UHGV virus genome: UHGV-0127092
Origin: a virus
DNA length: 42,338 bases
Strand: one strand, 5' to 3'
The position numbers were made by a program, and so were the translations under genes. The notes beneath the pieces are model-generated. The model saw nothing but the letters and a program-made list of their open reading frames with translations. It was not told the DNA's origin and did not search any database. Of the stretch, positions 1-7,994 are shown piece after piece. The first letter of the stretch is position 1; each line of letters opens with the position of its first letter.

Positions 1-49
1 CACATTAAAGTACACAATATTTGTGCCCTTCTCTGTTTCTTTCCCGTTA

Positions 50-598
50 TCAGCTAGCTGGAAACTTTTTATACAGAGTTGAGAGCCCTACTCCATACGT
101 TTTTGATACGCTTTGTCGTGATTCACCGGTTGCCATCCGCTCCCCCATTTCCCGCCATTGCTCATCCGTGAACTTAGGCCTGCGACCACCAACTCGCCAT
201 TTTGCCCTGGCTACGGCCAGCCCTGCTAAGGTACGTTCGCTATTAAGATCAGATTCATATTGTGCTGCGGAAAGGATGTTACGAAAGTTATAGCGGCCGC
301 TGGCTGTTTTGAGATCCACGCCATCGGTAATACTGCGGAAGTTGATACCCTTTTCCTGTAACTGCTGGAACATCAACAGCGCATGCAGAACGTTGCGGCC
401 TATCCTGTCCAGCTTCCACACCACCAGTGTATCGCCCGCATTCAGAGTCCGCAGAAGCTTTTTGAGCGCTGGCCGGTTCGCTACCGTCCCGCTCATTTTT
501 TCTTCAAAAACCTGTTCACATCCTGCGCGTTCGAGTGCTTGGCGCTGGAGATCTGTATTTTGGTCATTTGTTGACACCCTTACATAGCCAATTTGCAT
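50..598 (-). CDS. Serine recombinase, DNA invertase of the Hin/Gin/Pin/Cin family
   Basis: N-terminal MQIGYVRVSTNDQ catalytic-serine motif, LVVWKLDRIGR, C-terminal HTH (GLSTLYKKF), about 180 aa. Start moved from track 607 (GTG) to ATG at about 598, preceded by GGGTGA. Confidence 0.9.
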   Translation of the reverse strand: MQIGYVRVSTNDQNTDLQRQALERAGCEQVFEEKMSGTVANRPALKKLLRTLNAGDTLVVWKLDRIGRNVLHALLMFQQLQEKGINFRSITDGVDLKTASGRYNFRNILSAAQYESDLNSERTLAGLAVARAKWRVGGRRPKFTDEQWREMGERMATGESRQSVSKTYGVGLSTLYKKFPAS

Positions 599-603
599 AT
601 TTT

Positions 604-906
604 TCACCCAGTTATTTCTGCAAAAAAATCAGGTGAAGTTATCGGCCAGGCCGCTCGAGAGCAATCTATAAAACGTCCGTTTGGATTGAACATCAGCCAC
701 GTCTTGTCATCGCTGTGGTCTGTCGAAGCGTCACGGAAGCAACGGGAATAGCGTGCAATCCACTGATTCGCCTCTGCATTAGAAAGATGCCAGTTCACTT
801 TCTCCAGCTCTCTGACGAAATCAGACGTTCTCACAGACCTGCGGCCTGACCTTTCATGCACTATTGCTGCCCGGAAGGCTAGCTCCATATCTGAACGACG
901 CGGCAT
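604..906 (-). CDS. Hypothetical protein, candidate SOS-regulated gene translationally coupled to the invertase
   Basis: ORF on minus strand; stop TGA lies 5 nt upstream of the invertase ATG; LexA-box-like palindrome 19-38 nt upstream of the proposed ATG (MPRRSDMELAF...). Track start 948 would place the palindrome inside the ORF. No family recognised. Confidence 0.5.
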   Translation of the reverse strand: MPRRSDMELAFRAAIVHERSGRRSVRTSDFVRELEKVNWHLSNAEANQWIARYSRCFRDASTDHSDDKTWLMFNPNGRFIDCSRAAWPITSPDFFAEITG

Positions 907-924
907 AAAGTTACTCACAACAAA

Positions 925-944
925 TACTGTATATACATACAGTA
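925..944. promoter_or_regulatory. Candidate LexA operator (SOS box) TACTGTATATACATACAGTA
   Basis: CTG-N10-CAG palindrome with AT-rich spacer; one mismatch to the E. coli LexA consensus TACTGTATATATATACAGTA; sits just upstream of ORF 604-906. Confidence 0.6.
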
Positions 945-1266
945 TCATTCACTCCGGCGTTTGTTCAAGATGGGGTGAGCAAAAAGCCATCTAAGCGGGC
1001 TGTTTGCTTGTTATAGAGAAGGTAAGTCGCTCAACCAACTACAAGTTGCATCCTATTTTTAACTTGAGGTTTTACTAAAACCACGACCGACTAATCAGTT
1101 ATCTACTAAATCTTTTTTCCTTAGCGTATTACAAACAGTGTAATAAATTAAAAACGTATAGAGAAAAGCAGAAGCTTTTCACTGATATGCCCTTCTAATT
1201 CAAGCTGCCGCAGCCCGCTTTCACTCTCAATGCAGCTGCGGCATTACTCTTGAAGTTGATTTGCTA

Positions 1267-2508
1267 TCACTTTTCGCCAAGCAATTTAATCAATGTGCGA
1301 AGTTCTTCAATCTCCCTTTGTTGATACTGAACAACTCCGAGAAGGTCCATTACTATGGGGTTAGTATCTACAGATGGGCGATCCCGGTACACTGGTTTAT
1401 AAGGTCGACCAACTTCATCAAGCTCACTGTCGCTGTATTCCGCCTCTGGGTCAATTTCACGGTTATGCTTTATGTATTGAGGCGCAACAAGCTCAGTTTC
1501 TTCCGCAATGATACCGAAACGGATCCTGTGCAGATCATCGTCAATATATTTAAAGTTAACCATCTTAAGCGACATTATTCGATTAAGAGCTTCTTTTAGA
1601 TCGGCTTCTGCAATGTCCTCTTTGTACTGCAGCCCAGATGTCCCCTGCAATGCAAGCGTTCCACTAGTATTAGGGAAATATACGGTCGTTGATCCAGTAG
1701 TAAGAGCGTCACCTCGTCTCCAAACATAAAGAGTACCCTCCTTTTGTTCCAGGCCTATTCGTTTGCCGATCACATCTCCAAGATTGTAGTCTCGTAAAAC
1801 CAAACTGGGATAATTCGCTGATGTAGTGAATCCTTCGTTAATTCCATATGCCGTTATTTTACTTGTAAAAGTTTTTAGTCCAGTTATTTCTTCTGTATTA
1901 TCTATCCCTACAGCTTTAATATTCTTTCTGGCATCAGTATCATTTTTGGCTCCAGTCCCTCCCATGCTTATTGGAATTAGCCCGGAACTATCAACTAATT
2001 CAAGATTTTTGCGAGCCTCAGCCGCTGTCTTTGCGCCGGTCCCCCCCTGGGCAATACTCAGTGCTGTAGTTAACCCTTTCAGCTCTGTGATATCGCTATT
2101 TGCCCCTTTGCGGGCGAGACCACCAATGGCCGGAATGCTGAGGCTGGTGCCGTTGATTGTCACAGTGACCAACTGGTTCGCTGAGGTGCTGGCGAACGTC
2201 TCCCATGCTCCAATGTTCTCGTCATACTCGTTAATGAGCTGCGACATACTTTGCGCCAGGCCATCGACGGAGAGGCTGTCGGTAACGAGGATGCCGTACT
2301 TCTGTCCGCTCAGTGCCGGTGACGCAGCTGGGGTAACGGTTAACGATGTGCCGCTGTTGATAGCGGTAATCTGAAACATCTGGACCGGGTTAGAGAGCAC
2401 AATAATGGTCTGGCTCACGCGAATCTGGCTGGCCGGTGCCGTCCAGTTTGTGCCCGTCCCGGTGGCGGTATTTCCATTAATGGCGATGGTGCCGGTGTTA
2501 TAAAGCAT
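1267..2508 (-). CDS. Side tail fiber protein with C-terminal intramolecular chaperone (peptidase S74-like) domain
   Basis: Repeated GGTGAK...ARKN motifs typical of tail fibers; C-terminal MSLKMVNFKYIDDD...GIIAEETELVAPQYIK...LLGVVQYQQREIEELRTLI resembles the endosialidase-chaperone domain. ATG at about 2508 preceded by GGAGA. Confidence 0.8.
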   Translation of the reverse strand: MLYNTGTIAINGNTATGTGTNWTAPASQIRVSQTIIVLSNPVQMFQITAINSGTSLTVTPAASPALSGQKYGILVTDSLSVDGLAQSMSQLINEYDENIGAWETFASTSANQLVTVTINGTSLSIPAIGGLARKGANSDITELKGLTTALSIAQGGTGAKTAAEARKNLELVDSSGLIPISMGGTGAKNDTDARKNIKAVGIDNTEEITGLKTFTSKITAYGINEGFTTSANYPSLVLRDYNLGDVIGKRIGLEQKEGTLYVWRRGDALTTGSTTVYFPNTSGTLALQGTSGLQYKEDIAEADLKEALNRIMSLKMVNFKYIDDDLHRIRFGIIAEETELVAPQYIKHNREIDPEAEYSDSELDEVGRPYKPVYRDRPSVDTNPIVMDLLGVVQYQQREIEELRTLIKLLGEK

Positions 2509-2523
2509 ATTTTCTCCAGGCAA

Positions 2524-2547
2524 TAAAAAAACCCCGCCGGAGCGAGG
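2524..2547 (-). terminator. Rho-independent terminator (minus strand) after the lipoprotein gene
   Basis: Minus-strand RNA CCUCGC-UCCG-GCGGGG followed by a U7 tract; read directly from sequence. Confidence 0.6.
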
Positions 2548-2568
2548 TTTATGTTTAAGCGTAGTGGG

Positions 2569-2802
2569 TTATTTGCAGGTTGTTTCGGTAAATGTATTCG
2601 CACTTACCCAGCGCCAGCTGAAAGGATATCCAGCCCGGTACTGCGTCTGGTTGTTTTGTTTACGCACACCGTAAATCTGAACCGTAGTTTCCTGACCGCC
2701 AACGATTGCAGTGCCGCTGCAAACTGGTTCCTGTTTCTCAATTACGCCAGCGCATCCTGTAAGCATGACAGCGCCTGCCATGCAGATAATCAGTTTTCTC
2801 AT
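2569..2802 (-). CDS. Small lipoprotein, possible Cor-like superinfection-exclusion protein (moron)
   Basis: 77 aa, signal peptide with lipobox LTGC, sits between the J-associated genes and the tail fiber gene with its own terminator. Cor assignment rests on size and context only. Confidence 0.6.
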   Translation of the reverse strand: MRKLIICMAGAVMLTGCAGVIEKQEPVCSGTAIVGGQETTVQIYGVRKQNNQTQYRAGYPFSWRWVSANTFTETTCK

Positions 2803-2913
2803 TTTGATAGTATCCAGAGGAATTCAGTATCTTAGACGATACCAATACAATTCTGGTGGGTATAATTGATTGGATAGATCAATATTATGTTATTGATCGC
2901 TAAAAACGATCAA

Positions 2914-3588
2914 TCAATCATAGGCCGCTGTATTTATGGCGGTTAATGAAATGCCAGTATTCGTTCCCCCTCCAGGTGAACCTGCCCCAGTGGAGGTCCC
3001 CCCTGCGTTTATCCTCGTATTGGCCCCGTCAAACCTGCATGAAGAATAAGCATTTATCGTGTAGATAGTCGGAGGCTGGGTTGAATTATTCACAATGATG
3101 GTCTGACCCAACTGAGCAGGTGCAACGGCCCATGACCCGCTCAGCGTCTGGTCAATATTTATCCCGCCGTTTGCACCAGGCGTGCCAACCGTCTGCAGGT
3201 CTGATAGCACACGGGACTCATTAGTTAACACAAGCTTTCCGCTCGCATCCCATATTGCCAAACCCCATTTCGGTAATATCTGCGGGAATATGGCAAAAAC
3301 GTACGCCGTTAAAGTGAAACTTTGGTTGTAGGGATTAACACCAGCAACATACACATTACCGCCGTTCCTGTAAGACATAACCGGAGTGGGCTGTGCTGTA
3401 TTGGTGGTTTTGATAAAAACCATCACTGGGTAATCAGCGTTTAAAGCGATATTTTGAGCAACCTGCTGAGAACTGCCATTCGCGGATGAATTGAAGGTAT
3501 ACTTCCCGTAAAGACAGAAAGGCGTTGATTGTGGCGTTACAAAGGGATTCCCGTTATCCATTAATATCATCGCGCCAAATTCGGCCAT
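2914..3588 (-). CDS. Hypothetical tail-associated protein (Gly/Thr/Asn-rich)
   Basis: 224-aa ORF translationally coupled (1-nt overlap) to the upstream 100-aa ORF, downstream of J. Confidence 0.5.
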   Translation of the reverse strand: MAEFGAMILMDNGNPFVTPQSTPFCLYGKYTFNSSANGSSQQVAQNIALNADYPVMVFIKTTNTAQPTPVMSYRNGGNVYVAGVNPYNQSFTLTAYVFAIFPQILPKWGLAIWDASGKLVLTNESRVLSDLQTVGTPGANGGINIDQTLSGSWAVAPAQLGQTIIVNNSTQPPTIYTINAYSSCRFDGANTRINAGGTSTGAGSPGGGTNTGISLTAINTAAYD

Positions 3589-3891: not shown

Positions 3892-6800
3892 TCAGAACAC
3901 CCCCGTTAATCGGCCAACCTGCACTCTCAGAACGTTGTTGCCATCCTTGACGCTGATTGTCTGGTTGGTCTGCTTCATGGCTCCCTCCCCAGCTGTCGAA
4001 CCGTAGTTCTCAAACGTCCCGGACTTATCCAGTTTCCAGCCAACAGAGCCGGCAACATAATTGTTCGACTGGATGTAATTGCCAATTTTTGCATTGCTTA
4101 TGGTCCCGTCGCCAATGACTGTATCCCTGATAATGGCCTGGCCATTCTGGATAACGAACGGCAGTGTTACAGTCCCGCCGACCATAGTAGTCACGGCGAA
4201 ACGGTCTGCCAGGAAGATTACCTGTGACTGCATGCCGGAGGGTGTATTTTGAACCCCAATACCCATCCCGGCAGCGTAATACTGCCCGTTACTGGACACC
4301 CCCACCTTGATGTTATACATCGCGCTGAGGTTACCGTTTACATCTGCTATAGCCTGTGCGTTGACGTTTATCGCTGCACTGTTTTCGCCTGATTTAACAG
4401 TCAGAGTGTTGATTTTTGTTGCCGAAGCCTGGGTGAAATCAGCAAGAGTTTCTGTCAGGTCCGTTGAGTTAGAGATATTGCCACCAGCTTCTGCATCCAG
4501 TGTGACCAGCGCGCGTGCGACCGCCTGGCTGGTATCGGCAATCGTAGTATCCACTCTGTCTATACTGGCACTGTTCCCGGCGTTCGTGGCGGTCTGCGAG
4601 CGACGGCTTACCACCTGCGCCAGCCCATTCTGAATAATCGCGATTGCCGAGTTCTTCACTCCTCCCGTCATGCCGTCCATCGACACAGAAATCTCGTCGA
4701 TCTTCACTTCGGCCTGAGCCAGCCCGTCAGCGTTCTCCAGGATGTCTTTCGCTTGCTGCTCCAGTTCGTCGTTGGCCTGTTTGATATCGTTAGCCATGCC
4801 AGCAATTTTTTCATTGCTGTCCACAGCGTTCTCGATCAGGTCTTTGAACGTATCGGAGCCTTTCATGTCCTCCAGGATCACATCTGTGATGTCGGAAACA
4901 TCGATGCTGGCCTGTCCTCGCACCCATTCTGTGTACCCTGATTCGTTGCCGCTGCGGTCCACCAGCTGAGCGCGGTACCAGAAAATCTGCCCAGCCTTGA
5001 GGCCCATCTGCTGATATTTGCGCTGCGGATAAGGCACATCGGCCAGCAGCATTGCATCATCTTCGCTACCGGTCAGGCTGTACTGAATTTCCGTCTTCAG
5101 CGTGTCGTCGGTATTCGCCGGGAATCCCCAGTTCAGCTCGATGCCGAAATCCACATTTTCAGAAGCGATGAAGCCAACCGGCTTCGGTGGATTGCCCACT
5201 TTACCCGTAAGATTTACTTCTGGTGATGTCGCCCACACTGATGAAACGTCGCTGGCGTTCACCGCCCTGACGCGGACCAGATAGCGACCCGAGTAGATAC
5301 CCTGCACTTCAAAGCCGAGAGAAGACGTTCGTGGCACACTAATCCAGTTGCCGCTGTCACGCCGCCATTCCGCCTCGTACGCAACTGCACCCTGAACAGC
5401 ATCCCAGGCAACGCGCATGGTGGTAATCGCAATGTTCTGGTTAACCGTAGAGTAACTGTCTACGACGATATTTCCTGGGGGAGCCTGAACCCCTGGCGGA
5501 ATGACACTGACTGGCCGCTCGTCCAGTCTTGCGCCGGTATCAACAGCGGAATAGATATCAGGGTTGTAAGTCGTCCCGGTGACCTCGAAAGTACCGTCGT
5601 TGTTGTCCCGCGTTCCCGTAACACGGAAAAGCGCTATAAACAGATCGTCAGAGTCCACACCCCAGTTACATTCAGCCTCCGGCGTTTCGCTGTATGGTGT
5701 GGTGACAGTGACTGTGTTTCCGTTAACGGCCTGGACGGTTCTGGCCTGAGCTGTGCCTGACGGAAGATTCAAAAACAGCCTGTTACCGGCTTTCACATCA
5801 GCAGCGCGATCGAGGGTTATGTTGCGGCCGTTAACCGCACTCACCCTGCCGCCGATAGTTCTTCCGGCCAGCTCGTTAGCAGCCACGCCGATCACCTCAC
5901 CAACAGGGGGGACGTCCATGCCTGTGCTGAAGGTCACCACCTCGCCGATACCGTTGGTAAGCAGCGCCCAGCGCCCCCGCCGGTTTGCCTCTGACTGCCT
6001 GGTGCAGCCGATCGCAGTCATTTCGAGCTGACGATAATCGAAGCGCATGGCCAGATCGCTATCGTAAACAGGCTCAGGCGTATCTTTGTAGTGGTTGGCA
6101 GGGTCTGACCAGTTCACCAGCGCGGCAGTGTTTCGGGTGGTTTCACTCGGGTCCGCAAAGGTAAATTTACCCTCAACTACGCTGGCGTGGTTATAGATAT
6201 GCCACACATCGCGGGGCATATCAGCCAGGACATACATCTTATTGTCACCCCAGTACGTCATGCCGCGAAATATACCCGCCAGATCACGAAGTACGGTCCA
6301 GGCGTCATTACGGTCCTGGATATAAACGTTGCAACGAAAACGCGGCTCCGTCCCGCTGCCGCCCTTGCCGTCTGGTACCAGCTGATCGCAATACTGGGCG
6401 ATGCGATAAAGTTCCCACTTGTCTATCTGAGTCGCATCGATTCTTTGCCCCAGCCCGAAACGCTCGTTCAGAATGATGTCGTAATAAATCCAGGCTGGGT
6501 TATCCGTCCATGCCCATTTAAACACACCTTCCCATGTACCAGAGTAAGTGCGGGTTTCAGGATCGTAGGTATCAGGTACACGGATGATTCTCCCCTTCGG
6601 ATTGCACACAACCTGAGGAATGCCATTAGGGAACTGCTTTGCGTCAAACTCTACATACAGCAGCGCTGTGTTAACGTAGCGAAGTTTGGCGTCAATAATT
6701 TCAGTTACAGCTACAACGCGCATGGTGTCCACGATATTCACGCTCGTGGAATCCGGCGTGATTCTGCGAACCCGTAACTGCCAGCCAGTCGAGGATTTTG

Positions 6801-7353
6801 GAAGGTTAACGCGGTGACTGCGCTCATAAAGCGACGTGGTTTTGTCATCGACAGCACCGTTAACCACCGTTTCATACGGCCCGCCATCTACCGACAGATC
6901 GATAGCATACTCGACGCGGGTGCCGACTTTGTCGCCGTTGTTTTTCTGGAGCAAGAGAGTTGGCCATCCCAGGCGAATTCGCAGCGCAGAGAGCTGCGTG
7001 TTGGATACCGCGCGCACGTACGGCACAGCCTGTTTCAGCTCGTATGAAACCTGAAGTTCGTTTTCAATGCCGGGGAAGCCCTGAATGTAGTCCTGGTCCT
7101 GAGTACCGGAACGGAACTCATATTTCACATTATTGAAGTTATAACTTCCGTCGGCGTTCTGAAGAGGCGTGTACGAAGATGAGTCACCAAGAAAAATGTT
7201 TTTACCATCAAGCCCGCCAGCGAACTCACCCTCTCCAAGCGCAATCAGCACCTTTGCCCTTGCAATGGACTGAATGCTGTCCGGTGCTTCAACGGGTGTT
7301 CGGGTCTGATTGCTGCCACCTTTACCGCGGCCTTTGATGATCGTCGTCGTCAT
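3892..7353 (-). CDS. J: Host specificity protein J (central tail fiber / tail tip)
   Basis: 1153 aa; conserved lambda gpJ blocks (TEIID, NTAL, YSGTWEG.FK.AW, DKWELYRIAQYCDQLVPDGKGG..EPRF.CNVY); follows the I-K-L-M genes. Confidence 0.9.
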   Translation of the reverse strand: MTTTIIKGRGKGGSNQTRTPVEAPDSIQSIARAKVLIALGEGEFAGGLDGKNIFLGDSSSYTPLQNADGSYNFNNVKYEFRSGTQDQDYIQGFPGIENELQVSYELKQAVPYVRAVSNTQLSALRIRLGWPTLLLQKNNGDKVGTRVEYAIDLSVDGGPYETVVNGAVDDKTTSLYERSHRVNLPKSSTGWQLRVRRITPDSTSVNIVDTMRVVAVTEIIDAKLRYVNTALLYVEFDAKQFPNGIPQVVCNPKGRIIRVPDTYDPETRTYSGTWEGVFKWAWTDNPAWIYYDIILNERFGLGQRIDATQIDKWELYRIAQYCDQLVPDGKGGSGTEPRFRCNVYIQDRNDAWTVLRDLAGIFRGMTYWGDNKMYVLADMPRDVWHIYNHASVVEGKFTFADPSETTRNTAALVNWSDPANHYKDTPEPVYDSDLAMRFDYRQLEMTAIGCTRQSEANRRGRWALLTNGIGEVVTFSTGMDVPPVGEVIGVAANELAGRTIGGRVSAVNGRNITLDRAADVKAGNRLFLNLPSGTAQARTVQAVNGNTVTVTTPYSETPEAECNWGVDSDDLFIALFRVTGTRDNNDGTFEVTGTTYNPDIYSAVDTGARLDERPVSVIPPGVQAPPGNIVVDSYSTVNQNIAITTMRVAWDAVQGAVAYEAEWRRDSGNWISVPRTSSLGFEVQGIYSGRYLVRVRAVNASDVSSVWATSPEVNLTGKVGNPPKPVGFIASENVDFGIELNWGFPANTDDTLKTEIQYSLTGSEDDAMLLADVPYPQRKYQQMGLKAGQIFWYRAQLVDRSGNESGYTEWVRGQASIDVSDITDVILEDMKGSDTFKDLIENAVDSNEKIAGMANDIKQANDELEQQAKDILENADGLAQAEVKIDEISVSMDGMTGGVKNSAIAIIQNGLAQVVSRRSQTATNAGNSASIDRVDTTIADTSQAVARALVTLDAEAGGNISNSTDLTETLADFTQASATKINTLTVKSGENSAAINVNAQAIADVNGNLSAMYNIKVGVSSNGQYYAAGMGIGVQNTPSGMQSQVIFLADRFAVTTMVGGTVTLPFVIQNGQAIIRDTVIGDGTISNAKIGNYIQSNNYVAGSVGWKLDKSGTFENYGSTAGEGAMKQTNQTISVKDGNNVLRVQVGRLTGVF

Positions 7354-7406
7354 ATCGCGTCCATAAAAGAAGCCACCGTCAGGTGGCTTGAAATGGGTAG
7401 TTTGGT

Positions 7407-7994
7407 TTATTGCTGATCTTCTGCATAAATCCCGGCTGAGATAATCGCACCGCCTATTTCCCTCTGTCCGTAAAGCAAAGGAACGGGGTTACCGGATGCC
7501 GTAGTATTGACGGGTCCGCCAAACGCATAGGAAGGCTTATTATCTGGGTCCTGTCGCATCCTCAGACCAGCAACCTGAGGGGAAAGCATTTGCACTACAC
7601 CACCCACAGCCATAGAACCAGCTGCGGCATATAGCGCCATTTGTGTACCTGCTGCCCATCCTATTGGGTTCCACCAGGTAAAAGCCGCAATTGCGGCGGC
7701 AGTAACAATTTGAAAGAGGCCCGCCCTTTTACTGCCGCGTATTACAGGGATAATGCGAAGTTCATCGCCAGGTCCAAGAAGATCAAACTCTTCCTTTCCT
7801 ATGTTTATTTGGTTTCGGAAGATGACAAAGTCCAGCCCCTTCGCTCTGGTCTCACGCAGGTAGGCATCAAATCCATCAATTGTGTTAGATAGCGCCCTGA
7901 ATACCTCACTGGCAGACGTTAACGCGCGGCGGTGGGTCCTGCCAAATCGCTGAGCCATTGAACCGCTGAGTTTGATAACGGTTTTTCTTTCCAT
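7407..7994 (-). CDS. I: Tail assembly protein I
   Basis: Lambda gpI-like: RFGR near N-terminus, hydrophobic Gly/Ala-rich core, C-terminal PVPLLYGQREIGG motif. Confidence 0.8.
   Translation of the reverse strand: MERKTVIKLSGSMAQRFGRTHRRALTSASEVFRALSNTIDGFDAYLRETRAKGLDFVIFRNQINIGKEEFDLLGPGDELRIIPVIRGSKRAGLFQIVTAAAIAAFTWWNPIGWAAGTQMALYAAAGSMAVGGVVQMLSPQVAGLRMRQDPDNKPSYAFGGPVNTTASGNPVPLLYGQREIGGAIISAGIYAEDQQ

What the first reader, a model, noticed from the sequence alone, without database searches (positions are those of the whole stretch)
1..1266. Hin/Gin/Pin-type invertase next to the side tail fiber gene but without a recognisable invertible tail-fiber segment
In Mu, P1 and e14 the invertase flanks a segment carrying alternative tail-fiber C-termini and tfa genes bounded by about 26-bp crossover sites. 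Here the tail fiber gene looks complete with its own chaperone domain, no tfa gene or alternative C-terminal cassette is visible, and I could not find a convincing pair of hix/gix-like sites. Sequence-level oddities in the interval are a perfect palindrome GGTTTTACTAAAACC at about 1068-1082 and an imperfect palindrome TTATCAGCTAGCTGGAAA at about 42-60 overlapping the invertase 3' end. The invertase may act on a segment beyond the window, on a small switch, or be orphaned.
Basis: partly seen in the sequence, partly recalled or inferred. Interest (0 to 1): 0.5.

Follow-up and report, generated by a model that had tools for sequence, protein, structure and literature searches.

The report
Orphaned phi80-type tail-fibre invertase
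The invertase is the intact last gene of a phi80-like E. coli prophage that has lost the flippable tail-fibre segment its relatives still carry, leaving one hybrid crossover site fused to a DNA-damage-inducible gene; this is an ordinary decayed form of a known system.

Summary
A Gin/Pin-type serine invertase (50-598, minus strand) lies next to a complete side tail fibre gene (1267-2508) that has its own S74 chaperone domain. There is no tfa gene, no alternative cassette and no pair of crossover sites.

Nothing is hidden outside the window. The prophage ends about 75-90 bp before base 1, at the phi80 attachment site in yciI, and tonB and trp follow.

Homology to relatives that have a true invertible fibre segment ends at this core. 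Homology to a LexA-controlled gene family (phrog_3893) ends at the same core from the other side. So the invertible segment was replaced by an exchange at the 2-bp core, giving a chimeric ORF (604-906).

The exact same invertase protein flanks a 2.3-kb segment that is inverted between sibling isolates CX15 and CX21, so the enzyme is probably active. Here it has no partner site, and more than 20 assemblies are colinear.

phi80 itself shows the same kind of decay. Interest is low to moderate.

The parts
50..598 (-). pinL-type serine DNA invertase gene, 182 aa, intact, with catalytic Ser9
   Evidence: Pfam Resolvase + HTH_7. 56% identical to Mu Gin over 181 aa. 99% identical to mEpX1 Pin and 85% to phi80 PinL. 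RefSeq protein WP_016247139.1 is the same accession in W619 (which carries this arrangement), YPE10, CX15 and CX21.
664..689 (.). Single hybrid crossover site ATCTATAAAACG|TC|CGTTTGGATTGA, core at 676-677. The outer half (664-675) is the genuine invertase-proximal half-site. The inner half (678-689) is the 3' end of the SOS gene.
   Evidence: AAACNNNNGTTT occurs only twice in the window. The site ranks 1st or 2nd of 42,313 positions on the site matrix. It has the same geometry as Mu gixR. Homology breakpoints from both sides meet at the core.
604..906 (-). Chimeric ORF of 100 aa. Residues 1-77 are a phrog_3893 SOS-gene product. Residues 78-100 are read-through of the invertase leader. The stop codon lies 5 nt before the invertase ATG.
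   Evidence: phrog_3893 matches residues 1-77 at 7e-32. Natural homologues are 79 aa and end ..NPNGG/NPNGRL. tblastn matches split at residue 76/77. PGAP does not annotate the ORF.
925..944 (.). LexA box TACTGTATATACATACAGTA, 19 nt upstream of the ORF start and pointing towards the ORF and the invertase
   Evidence: Direct reading. It is conserved upstream of homologues in L004 and L018.
945..1266 (.). AT-rich spacer with no detectable gene or relative. It contains the 15-bp palindrome at 1068-1082.
   Evidence: No ORF longer than 24 aa, no Rfam match, no similar DNA outside this arrangement.
1267..2508 (-). Side tail fibre gene, 413 aa, with a C-terminal intramolecular chaperone
   Evidence: Peptidase_S74, phrog_1980, PGAP 'tail fiber domain-containing protein'.
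1990..2015 (.). Degenerate positional homologue of the fibre-internal (left) crossover site, ATCAACTAATTC|AA|GATTTTTGCGAG, inside the motif AAEARKNLEL. Its core does not match 676-677.
   Evidence: It aligns with L003 ACTTCCTAAACC|GA|GGCTTGTGCGAG and the CX15 left site. The relatives' fibre homology stops here. Matrix score is 8-9 against 20-27 for working sites.
1..30 (.). 3' part of a stem-loop (GGGCACA..TGTGCCC followed by a T run) just after the invertase stop, probably a terminator. Its first three bases lie before the window.
   Evidence: Seen whole in L002 and in phi80 L006.

Best explanation
The window is almost a whole phi80-like (HK022/mEpX1-type) prophage integrated at yciI, and the invertase is its last gene. 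In relatives the same enzyme inverts a 1.5-2.3 kb segment carrying alternative tail-fibre C-termini, between a site inside the fibre gene and a site about 65 bp upstream of the invertase gene.

In this lineage that segment has been replaced by a fixed block: an S74-chaperone fibre C-terminus, a 320-bp spacer, and a LexA-controlled phrog_3893 gene. The right-hand joint lies exactly in the 2-bp core of the invertase-proximal site. The other parent was a weak quasi-site with the same GA core at the natural 3' end of the SOS gene. I infer that the invertase made the joint itself, either by deletion or by exchange between two molecules. The event removed the HumD/UmuD'-like partner gene and the fibre cassettes.

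What remains is one hybrid site and no usable partner, so nothing inverts in cis. The invertase is an intact orphan. By position it is now the second gene behind an SOS promoter; this last point is inferred and untested.
For: Location and family
- The phi80 attP and pinL layout is.

Relatives with complete systems
- YPE10 has two sites flanking opposed fibre cassettes.
- mEpX1 is similar.
- CX15 and CX21, with the identical invertase protein, differ by inversion of bases 5171-7495, and the end points are the sites.

The joint
- Homology to the pin family runs 1->682.
- Homology to phrog_3893 genes runs 944->676.
- Diagnostic bases 675 and 678 confine the joint to core bases 676-677.
- The L018 parent-type site is TCAATCCAAACG|GA|GGGATATGAGAT.

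No partner site
- Matrix scans of the window and of the 12 kb beyond its start find none.
- The left-site homologue at 1990-2015 is degenerate and has core AA.

No inversion seen
- Three genomes, one UViG and 17 metagenome/Logan contigs carry the arrangement; the three genomes, the UViG and the ten contigs fetched were compared and are all colinear.

Precedent
- phi80 has a lone site, fibre pseudogene fragments, a LexA-box gene and a pinL that stops 10 codons early.
Against: - That the invertase itself made the joint is inferred only from the position of the joint. Fibre genes and crossover sites are general hot spots of mosaicism.
- The quasi-site is weak (matrix score 6.8).
- Gin-type enzymes normally disfavour deletion.
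- All copies of this arrangement are nearly identical, so colinearity reflects recent common descent as much as stability.
- Assemblies report only the majority orientation, so rare inversion cannot be excluded.
- Neither SOS control nor co-transcription of the invertase has been shown.
Confidence: 0.8

Rival explanations
1. A small cis switch: the invertase flips about 390 bp between the 664-689 site and a site overlapping the 1068-1082 palindrome, reversing the LexA promoter and the SOS gene.
For: TATTTTTAACTT|GA|GGTTTTACTAAA at 1054-1079 has a core that is inverted relative to 676-677, and one half resembles a gix half-site.
Against: The full-site score is -2.1 to 0.3, about rank 200 in the window, against 20-27 for working sites. 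The two good half-sites of the palindrome lie tail to tail, not head to head. No inverted isoform exists in 21 or more assemblies, and the inner-flank 23-mer (GGCTGATGTTCAATCCAAACGGA) was found joined only to the native sequence: one viral contig, colinear, and no metagenome contig. Palindromes of this size are near chance frequency.
Confidence: 0.03
2. A standard system whose alternative cassette and second site lie just outside the window.
For: None beyond the fact that the window starts 49 bp after the invertase stop codon.
Against: The att core overlaps the end of yciI about 75-90 bp before base 1, and tonB, yciABC, ompW and trp follow. No site is found in those 12 kb; the best score is 6.9. 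In relatives the segment lies on the fibre side of the invertase, not the att side.
Confidence: 0.01
3. Not idle but acting in trans: the intact invertase, perhaps induced by the SOS response, works on crossover sites of other prophages in the same cell. This is compatible with the best explanation for the cis locus.
For: The gene is intact and identical to one next to a segment that flips. It lies 5 nt downstream of a LexA-box ORF, and no terminator is predicted between them. W619 has two more pin-like places. Cross-complementation among Gin, Cin, Pin and Hin is established knowledge, cited from memory.
Against: The other W619 loci were not located, and e14 is absent from icd. One contig carries Q79* in the invertase. 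phi80's copy is truncated. Both suggest weak selection. There are no expression data.
Confidence: 0.2
4. The joint at the core is a coincidence: the block was imported by homologous or illegitimate recombination, not by the invertase.
For: The left boundary (about 1990-2027) lies in a conserved fibre motif where homologous exchange is plausible. The block 1-1800 is found with two fibre N-termini that differ by about 7%, so it does move by homologous exchange.
Against: The right-hand joint is confined to the 2-bp core, both parents carry GA there, and there is no flanking homology beyond AAAC. Mosaic boundaries in seven other loci fall at the same site.
Confidence: 0.15

Closest known systems
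phage phi80 / Lula pinL region (NC_021190)
   Same: Same attachment site and same gene order: J, two small ORFs, cor, fibre, LexA-box moron, lone crossover site, pinL, attP. The invertase is 85% identical. The invertible segment has decayed to pseudogene fragments.
   Different: - The phi80 site has core AA/TT.
- Its SOS gene is dinI-like and points away from pinL.
- A hairpin (IR3) separates the site from pinL.
- phi80 pinL stops 10 codons early.
- Here the invertase is full length, and the SOS gene is fused to the site and points into the invertase gene.
Complete PinL systems: phage mEpX1, and E. coli YPE10, CX15 and CX21 prophages at yciI
   Same: Identical or 99% identical invertase, the same outer half-site and leader, and the same fibre N-terminus and upstream tail genes.
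   Different: These relatives have two or three good sites (scores 20-27) and opposed fibre C-terminal cassettes, and one pair of isolates shows the inversion. The window has one hybrid site (score 13.7) and a single fixed fibre.
Mu Gin/G segment, P1 Cin/C segment, e14 Pin/P segment
   Same: A small serine invertase with Ser9 and a C-terminal HTH. A 26-bp dyad site with a 2-bp core lies 45-66 bp upstream of the invertase gene, and the fibre gene lies upstream of that.
   Different: - No second site, no Sv/U-type cassettes and no tfa gene.
- The PinL clade differs from Gin and PinE at helix-E residues 104, 106, 108 and 114.
- It also differs at the three DBD residues reported as the Fis contact patch (E150, E153, R154 instead of Q, R, L).
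Cin/Gin recombination at quasi-sites (Iida and Hiestand-Nauer, 1980s; recalled from memory, not read here)
   Same: An exchange between a genuine site and a poorly matching site that shares the central dinucleotide.
   Different: That work was experimental. Here it is only inferred from a fossil joint.

Membership tests
Gin/Hin/Cin/Pin serine DNA invertase (the protein) | Small serine recombinase: N-terminal catalytic domain with the nucleophilic Ser, and a C-terminal HTH | tested here: met
   Pfam PF00239 + PF02796. Ser9, Arg7 and Arg42 are present. Gapless alignment to Gin 3UJ3 over residues 1-181, E 4e-62.
Gin/Hin/Cin/Pin serine DNA invertase (the protein) | Basic helix-B residues (Hin 47, 48, 51) that contact the enhancer | tested here: met
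   K46, K47 and R50.
Gin/Hin/Cin/Pin serine DNA invertase (the protein) | Fis contact patch Q151/R154/L155 (Hin numbering), reported as conserved in Hin, Gin and Cin | tested here: not met
   E150, E153 and R154 here and in the whole PinL clade. Gin and PinE have Q, R, L. The numbering offset to Hin is assumed from the shared N-terminal motif.
Invertible tail-fibre segment system (G/C/P-segment type) | Two crossover sites in inverted orientation with identical 2-bp cores | tested here: not met
   One site at 664-689 with core TC. The left-site homologue at 1990-2015 is degenerate and has core AA. No other candidate has a matching core and a score above 10.2.
Invertible tail-fibre segment system (G/C/P-segment type) | Alternative fibre C-termini (with or without tfa) on opposite strands between the sites | tested here: not met
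   One fibre gene and no ORF longer than 24 aa in 945-1266. The feature is present in relatives.
Invertible tail-fibre segment system (G/C/P-segment type) | Both orientations observed | tested here: not met
   Three genomes, one UViG and ten fetched contigs (of 17 that carry the arrangement) are colinear. Relatives CX15 and CX21 do differ by an inversion. Read-level data were not available.
Invertible tail-fibre segment system (G/C/P-segment type) | Fis-bound recombinational enhancer within the 5' part of the invertase gene | tested here: inconclusive
   The first 120 nt are 67-87% identical to gin in 30-nt bins (mean 75%), against 33-73% (mean about 55%) in the rest of the gene. Fis-like motifs sit at equivalent positions 29 and 101, but the spacing does not match what I recall for the known enhancers.
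phi80-like prophage | Integration at the yciI attB, and phi80/HK022-type tail, cor and fibre order with pinL next to attP | tested here: met
LexA-regulated phrog_3893 / HumD-like SOS moron | LexA box, a 79-aa gene, then an overlapping UmuD'-like S24 gene | tested here: not met
   The LexA box and residues 1-77 are present. The natural stop codon and the S24 gene are missing and are replaced by the invertase leader and gene.

The most novel reading that the evidence does not exclude
An intact PinL invertase that lost its own substrate has been captured as the second gene of a LexA-controlled operon. DNA damage would then raise invertase levels and drive recombination in trans at crossover sites or quasi-sites of other prophages, coupling host-range switching or prophage mosaicism to the SOS response. 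The PinL clade also departs from Gin/Hin at the Fis contact patch and at helix-E regulatory residues. That could relax the usual requirement for inverted sites in cis, and would explain the multi-site arrays and the deletion-type joint seen here.
Probability: 0.1. Interest if true: 0.6.

Novelty: new member of a known kind. Interest (0 to 1): 0.3.

Why it matters
- It closes the question raised: there is no hidden cassette or cryptic switch, and the invertase is an orphan of a well-known tail-fibre switching system.
- The base-precise joint is a clean natural example of invertase crossover sites acting as seams for phage mosaicism, an idea already in the literature (PMC3945230).
- It warns annotators that 'invertase next to a fibre gene' does not imply phase-variable host range.
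- Two things might deserve an experiment: the placement of the invertase behind an SOS promoter, and the PinL clade's divergence at Fis-related residues.

Tried and rejected
- **Palindrome 1068-1082 as a crossover site.** Rejected. Its half-sites are arranged tail to tail, the matrix score is -2.1 to 0.3, and palindromes of this size are near chance frequency.
- **Palindrome 47-64.** Rejected. It is coding sequence conserved in phi80.
- **Generic inverted-repeat search of the window.** Nothing relevant near the locus.
- **Other matrix hits.**
  - 29529 has core AC.
  - 41769 has core CC, lies inside int and is conserved in phi80.
  - 36100 has core GA but scores 8-10 and lies 35 kb away.
  - All three are taken as chance or as incompatible cores.
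- **Search for other junctions.** Exact-pattern scans of viral and metagenome contigs with the inner flank of the site found only the native arrangement.
- **Donor of the 945-1266 spacer and the fibre C-terminus.** Not found in the phage or E. coli collections.
- **Rfam, promoter and terminator scans of 1-3000 and 1-1400.** Nothing above threshold.
- **Fis-site comparison with gin.** Inconclusive.
- **The Lula/phi80 genome paper (PMC3510586).** Not held in the library, so phi80 facts come from its GenBank annotation.
- **Looking for e14 in W619 as a possible target in trans.** Absent at icd. The two other pin-like places were not located.

Full report
**1. What is in the interval**

The minus strand of 1-2600 reads, in the phage late direction:
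- a side tail fibre gene (2508->1267, 413 aa, Peptidase_S74 at aa 296-345);
- a 320-bp AT-rich spacer;
- a perfect LexA box (944->925);
- a 100-aa ORF (906->604);
- five bases later, a 182-aa serine recombinase gene (598->50).

The recombinase has the Resolvase and HTH_7 domains. It matches PHROG 125 'DNA invertase'. It aligns without gaps to Mu Gin over residues 1-181 at 56% identity, with Ser9 present.

The two palindromes exist, one at 1068-1082 and the other at 47-64 rather than 42-60. Neither is more than chance or coding sequence would give.

**2. Where the window comes from and what lies beyond it**

Bases 1-2600 are 100% identical to three complete E. coli chromosomes. In W619 the invertase is the last prophage gene, and the next genes are yciI, tonB, yciABC, ompW and trp.

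The closest phages are mEpX1, mEp237, HK225 and phi80. All have an invertase next to attP, and the phi80 attachment site is at yciI. The att core overlaps the end of yciI about 75-90 bp before window base 1.

A site matrix finds nothing in the 12 kb beyond the window start. The idea of a cassette just outside the window is refuted.

**3. What the same invertase does in relatives**

Strain YPE10 carries a prophage at the same site with the same RefSeq invertase protein (WP_016247139.1). Next to the invertase are two opposed 'tail fiber domain' cassettes, bounded by two sites:
- ATCTATTAAACG|TC|GGTTTAGGAAAC, proximal to the invertase;
- GTTTCCTAAACC|GA|CCTTTATTCAAC, inside the fibre gene.

mEpX1 is similar.

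Sibling isolates CX15 and CX21 again have the identical invertase protein. They differ by inversion of a 2325-bp segment whose end points are the crossover sites, and a third site lies inside the segment. So this exact enzyme sits beside DNA that really flips.

**4. The site that was missed**

At 664-689 the window has ATCTATAAAACG|TC|CGTTTGGATTGA.
- The motif AAACNNNNGTTT occurs only twice in 42 kb.
- The site ranks first on a matrix built from relatives' half-sites. It ranks second when its own half-site is left out of the matrix and Mu gix is added.
- It lies 66 bp upstream of the invertase ATG. Mu gixR (TTCCTGTAAACC|GA|GGTTTTGGATAA) lies 45 bp upstream of gin, in the same polarity.
- Its outer half scores like a working half-site (10.4-13). 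Its inner half is poor (3.3). The total of 13.7 compares with 19.7-27.0 for working sites.

**5. The joint**

Homology to YPE10, mEpX1 and seven Enterobacter or Buttiauxella loci runs from base 1 to 682-684 and then stops.

From the other side, homology to a LexA-controlled gene family runs from 944 down to 676. This holds for a 94%-identical Logan contig (L018) and for a 74%-identical E. coli locus (L004).

Read on the minus strand:
- window: ..TTCAATCCAAACG GA CGTTTTATAGATTGC..
- L018: ..TTCAATCCAAACG GA GGGATATGAGATGGG..
- YPE10: ..GTTTCCTAAACC GA CGTTTAATAGATTGC..

The base before the core comes from the SOS-gene parent and the base after it from the invertase parent. The exchange is therefore confined to the 2-bp core, and both parents carry GA there.

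In their natural context the family members are 79 aa, end ..NPNGG or ..NPNGRL, and overlap the start of a HumD/UmuD'-like S24 gene. In the window the ORF reads on for 23 codons through the invertase leader, and the S24 gene is gone. tblastn independently splits the ORF at residue 76/77.

Both parental sites have the same polarity. The event was therefore a deletion, or an exchange between two molecules, and not an inversion. That the invertase catalysed it is an inference from the position of the joint. Exchange of fibre modules at invertase sites has been proposed before (PMC3945230). Cin-mediated recombination at quasi-sites is recalled from memory only.

**6. The other boundary**

All relatives' fibre N-termini lose homology to the window at about 1990-2027. 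That point aligns with their fibre-internal site:
- L003: ACTTCCTAAACC|GA|GGCTTGTGCGAG
- window 1990-2015: ATCAACTAATTC|AA|GATTTTTGCGAG, inside the motif AAEARKNLEL.

So 678-2003 occupies the place of the invertible segment. Its left 'site' is degenerate (score 8-9) and its core does not match 676-677. Inversion there would also cut the only fibre gene.

**7. No second site and no inversion**

The palindrome candidate at 1054-1079 scores -2.1 to 0.3. Other high-scoring positions have incompatible cores (AC at 29529, CC at 41769 inside int) or are weak and 35 kb away.

The arrangement is carried by three genomes, one IMG/VR contig and 17 metagenome or Logan contigs. The genomes, the IMG/VR contig and the ten fetched contigs were compared with the window and are all colinear. 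Exact-pattern scans with the inner flank of the site found no other junction.

The block 1-1800 is identical even where the fibre N-terminus differs by about 7%. It therefore moves as a unit by homologous exchange. One contig has Q79* in the invertase.

These copies are nearly clonal, and assemblies show only the majority orientation. Rare inversion is not excluded.

**8. Comparison with what is known**

phi80 itself shows the same decay. Its GenBank record annotates pinL, a lone site region, an internal fragment of a tail-collar protein, a LexA site with a dinI-like gene, and then the fibre. Its lone site is ATATTTGAAAGG|TT|GGTTTGGGAGAA. Its pinL stops 10 codons early and so loses the end of the HTH.

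The window is another member of this kind, with an intact invertase and a different SOS moron fused at the site.

The protein is a Gin/Pin-family invertase, but the locus fails the defining features of an invertible-segment system.

One side observation concerns the whole PinL clade, including members that do invert. It differs from Gin and e14 PinE in two places:
- at helix-E positions 104, 106, 108 and 114;
- at the three DBD residues reported as the conserved Fis contact patch, which are E, E, R here instead of Q, R, L.

The helix-B basic residues are kept.

**9. How it most likely works now**

- Shown: an intact invertase gene, one hybrid site, no partner site, and a LexA box 330 bp upstream that points into the ORF and the invertase, with no predicted terminator between them.
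- Inferred: nothing inverts in cis. The invertase may be transcribed with the SOS gene. It may act in trans on other Pin-type segments. W619 has two more pin-like places that I did not locate, and it has no e14 at icd.

**10. Verdict**

The finding is real, but it is explained as a decayed form of a known system. Interest is 0.3.

Noticed in passing
L019 (CX21) 7477-7502 compared with L020 (CX15) 7477-7502: After the inversion, the fibre-side site in CX21 reads ATCTCCTAAACC|AA|GGTTTGTGCGAG, where CX15 has core GA. A changed core could lock the segment. It could also be an assembly error.
   Followed up: no
L020 5164-7502; L012 2525-3390: Relatives have more than two sites. CX15 has three. A Buttiauxella MAG has two in direct orientation, 824 bp apart. 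These are shufflon-like variants of the PinL system.
   Followed up: partly
window 50-598 and alignment A1: The whole phi80 PinL clade differs from Gin and PinE at helix-E residues (N104, R106, I108, Y114) and at the reported Fis contact patch (E150, E153, R154). This raises the question of whether these invertases need Fis. The window protein also has W134 where mEpX1, phi80, Gin and PinE have Gly.
   Followed up: partly
L006 (phi80) 5080-5598: phi80 pinL ends at ..YGVGL, 10 codons short of the family, because of a TAA at the position of window base ~82. It loses the end of the HTH and is probably inactive.
   Followed up: partly
window 41769-41794: A site-like dyad, AGAACCTAAACG|CC|CGTTTGCACAGC, lies inside the integrase gene and is conserved in phi80 and mEpX1. 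Its core is incompatible with 676-677, so it is probably coincidental.
   Followed up: partly
window 604-906; L004 4663-5224; L018 687-1341: A 79-aa phrog_3893 gene followed by a HumD/UmuD'-like S24 gene, behind a LexA box, recurs as an SOS moron at prophage ends. PGAP names the 79-aa protein 'DNA polymerase V' although no Pfam or NCBIfam model matches it. PGAP leaves the window's chimeric ORF unannotated.
   Followed up: partly
window 31173-33528: Just downstream of the S24-type CI repressor gene (31173-31940) lie two AT-rich ORFs of 159 and 310 aa that look like a moron, possibly defence genes. A LexA-like box at 32237-32256 lies inside the first ORF and is probably chance.
   Followed up: no
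window 1-30 (extends 3 bases before the window): A stem-loop, GGGCACA..TGTGCCC, with T runs on both strands lies between the invertase stop and attR. It looks like a two-way terminator and is conserved in phi80 and YPE10.
   Followed up: no
L027 353-589: One metagenome-derived contig with this arrangement has L17F and Q79* in the invertase. This is a possible sign of relaxed selection, or a sequencing error.
   Followed up: no
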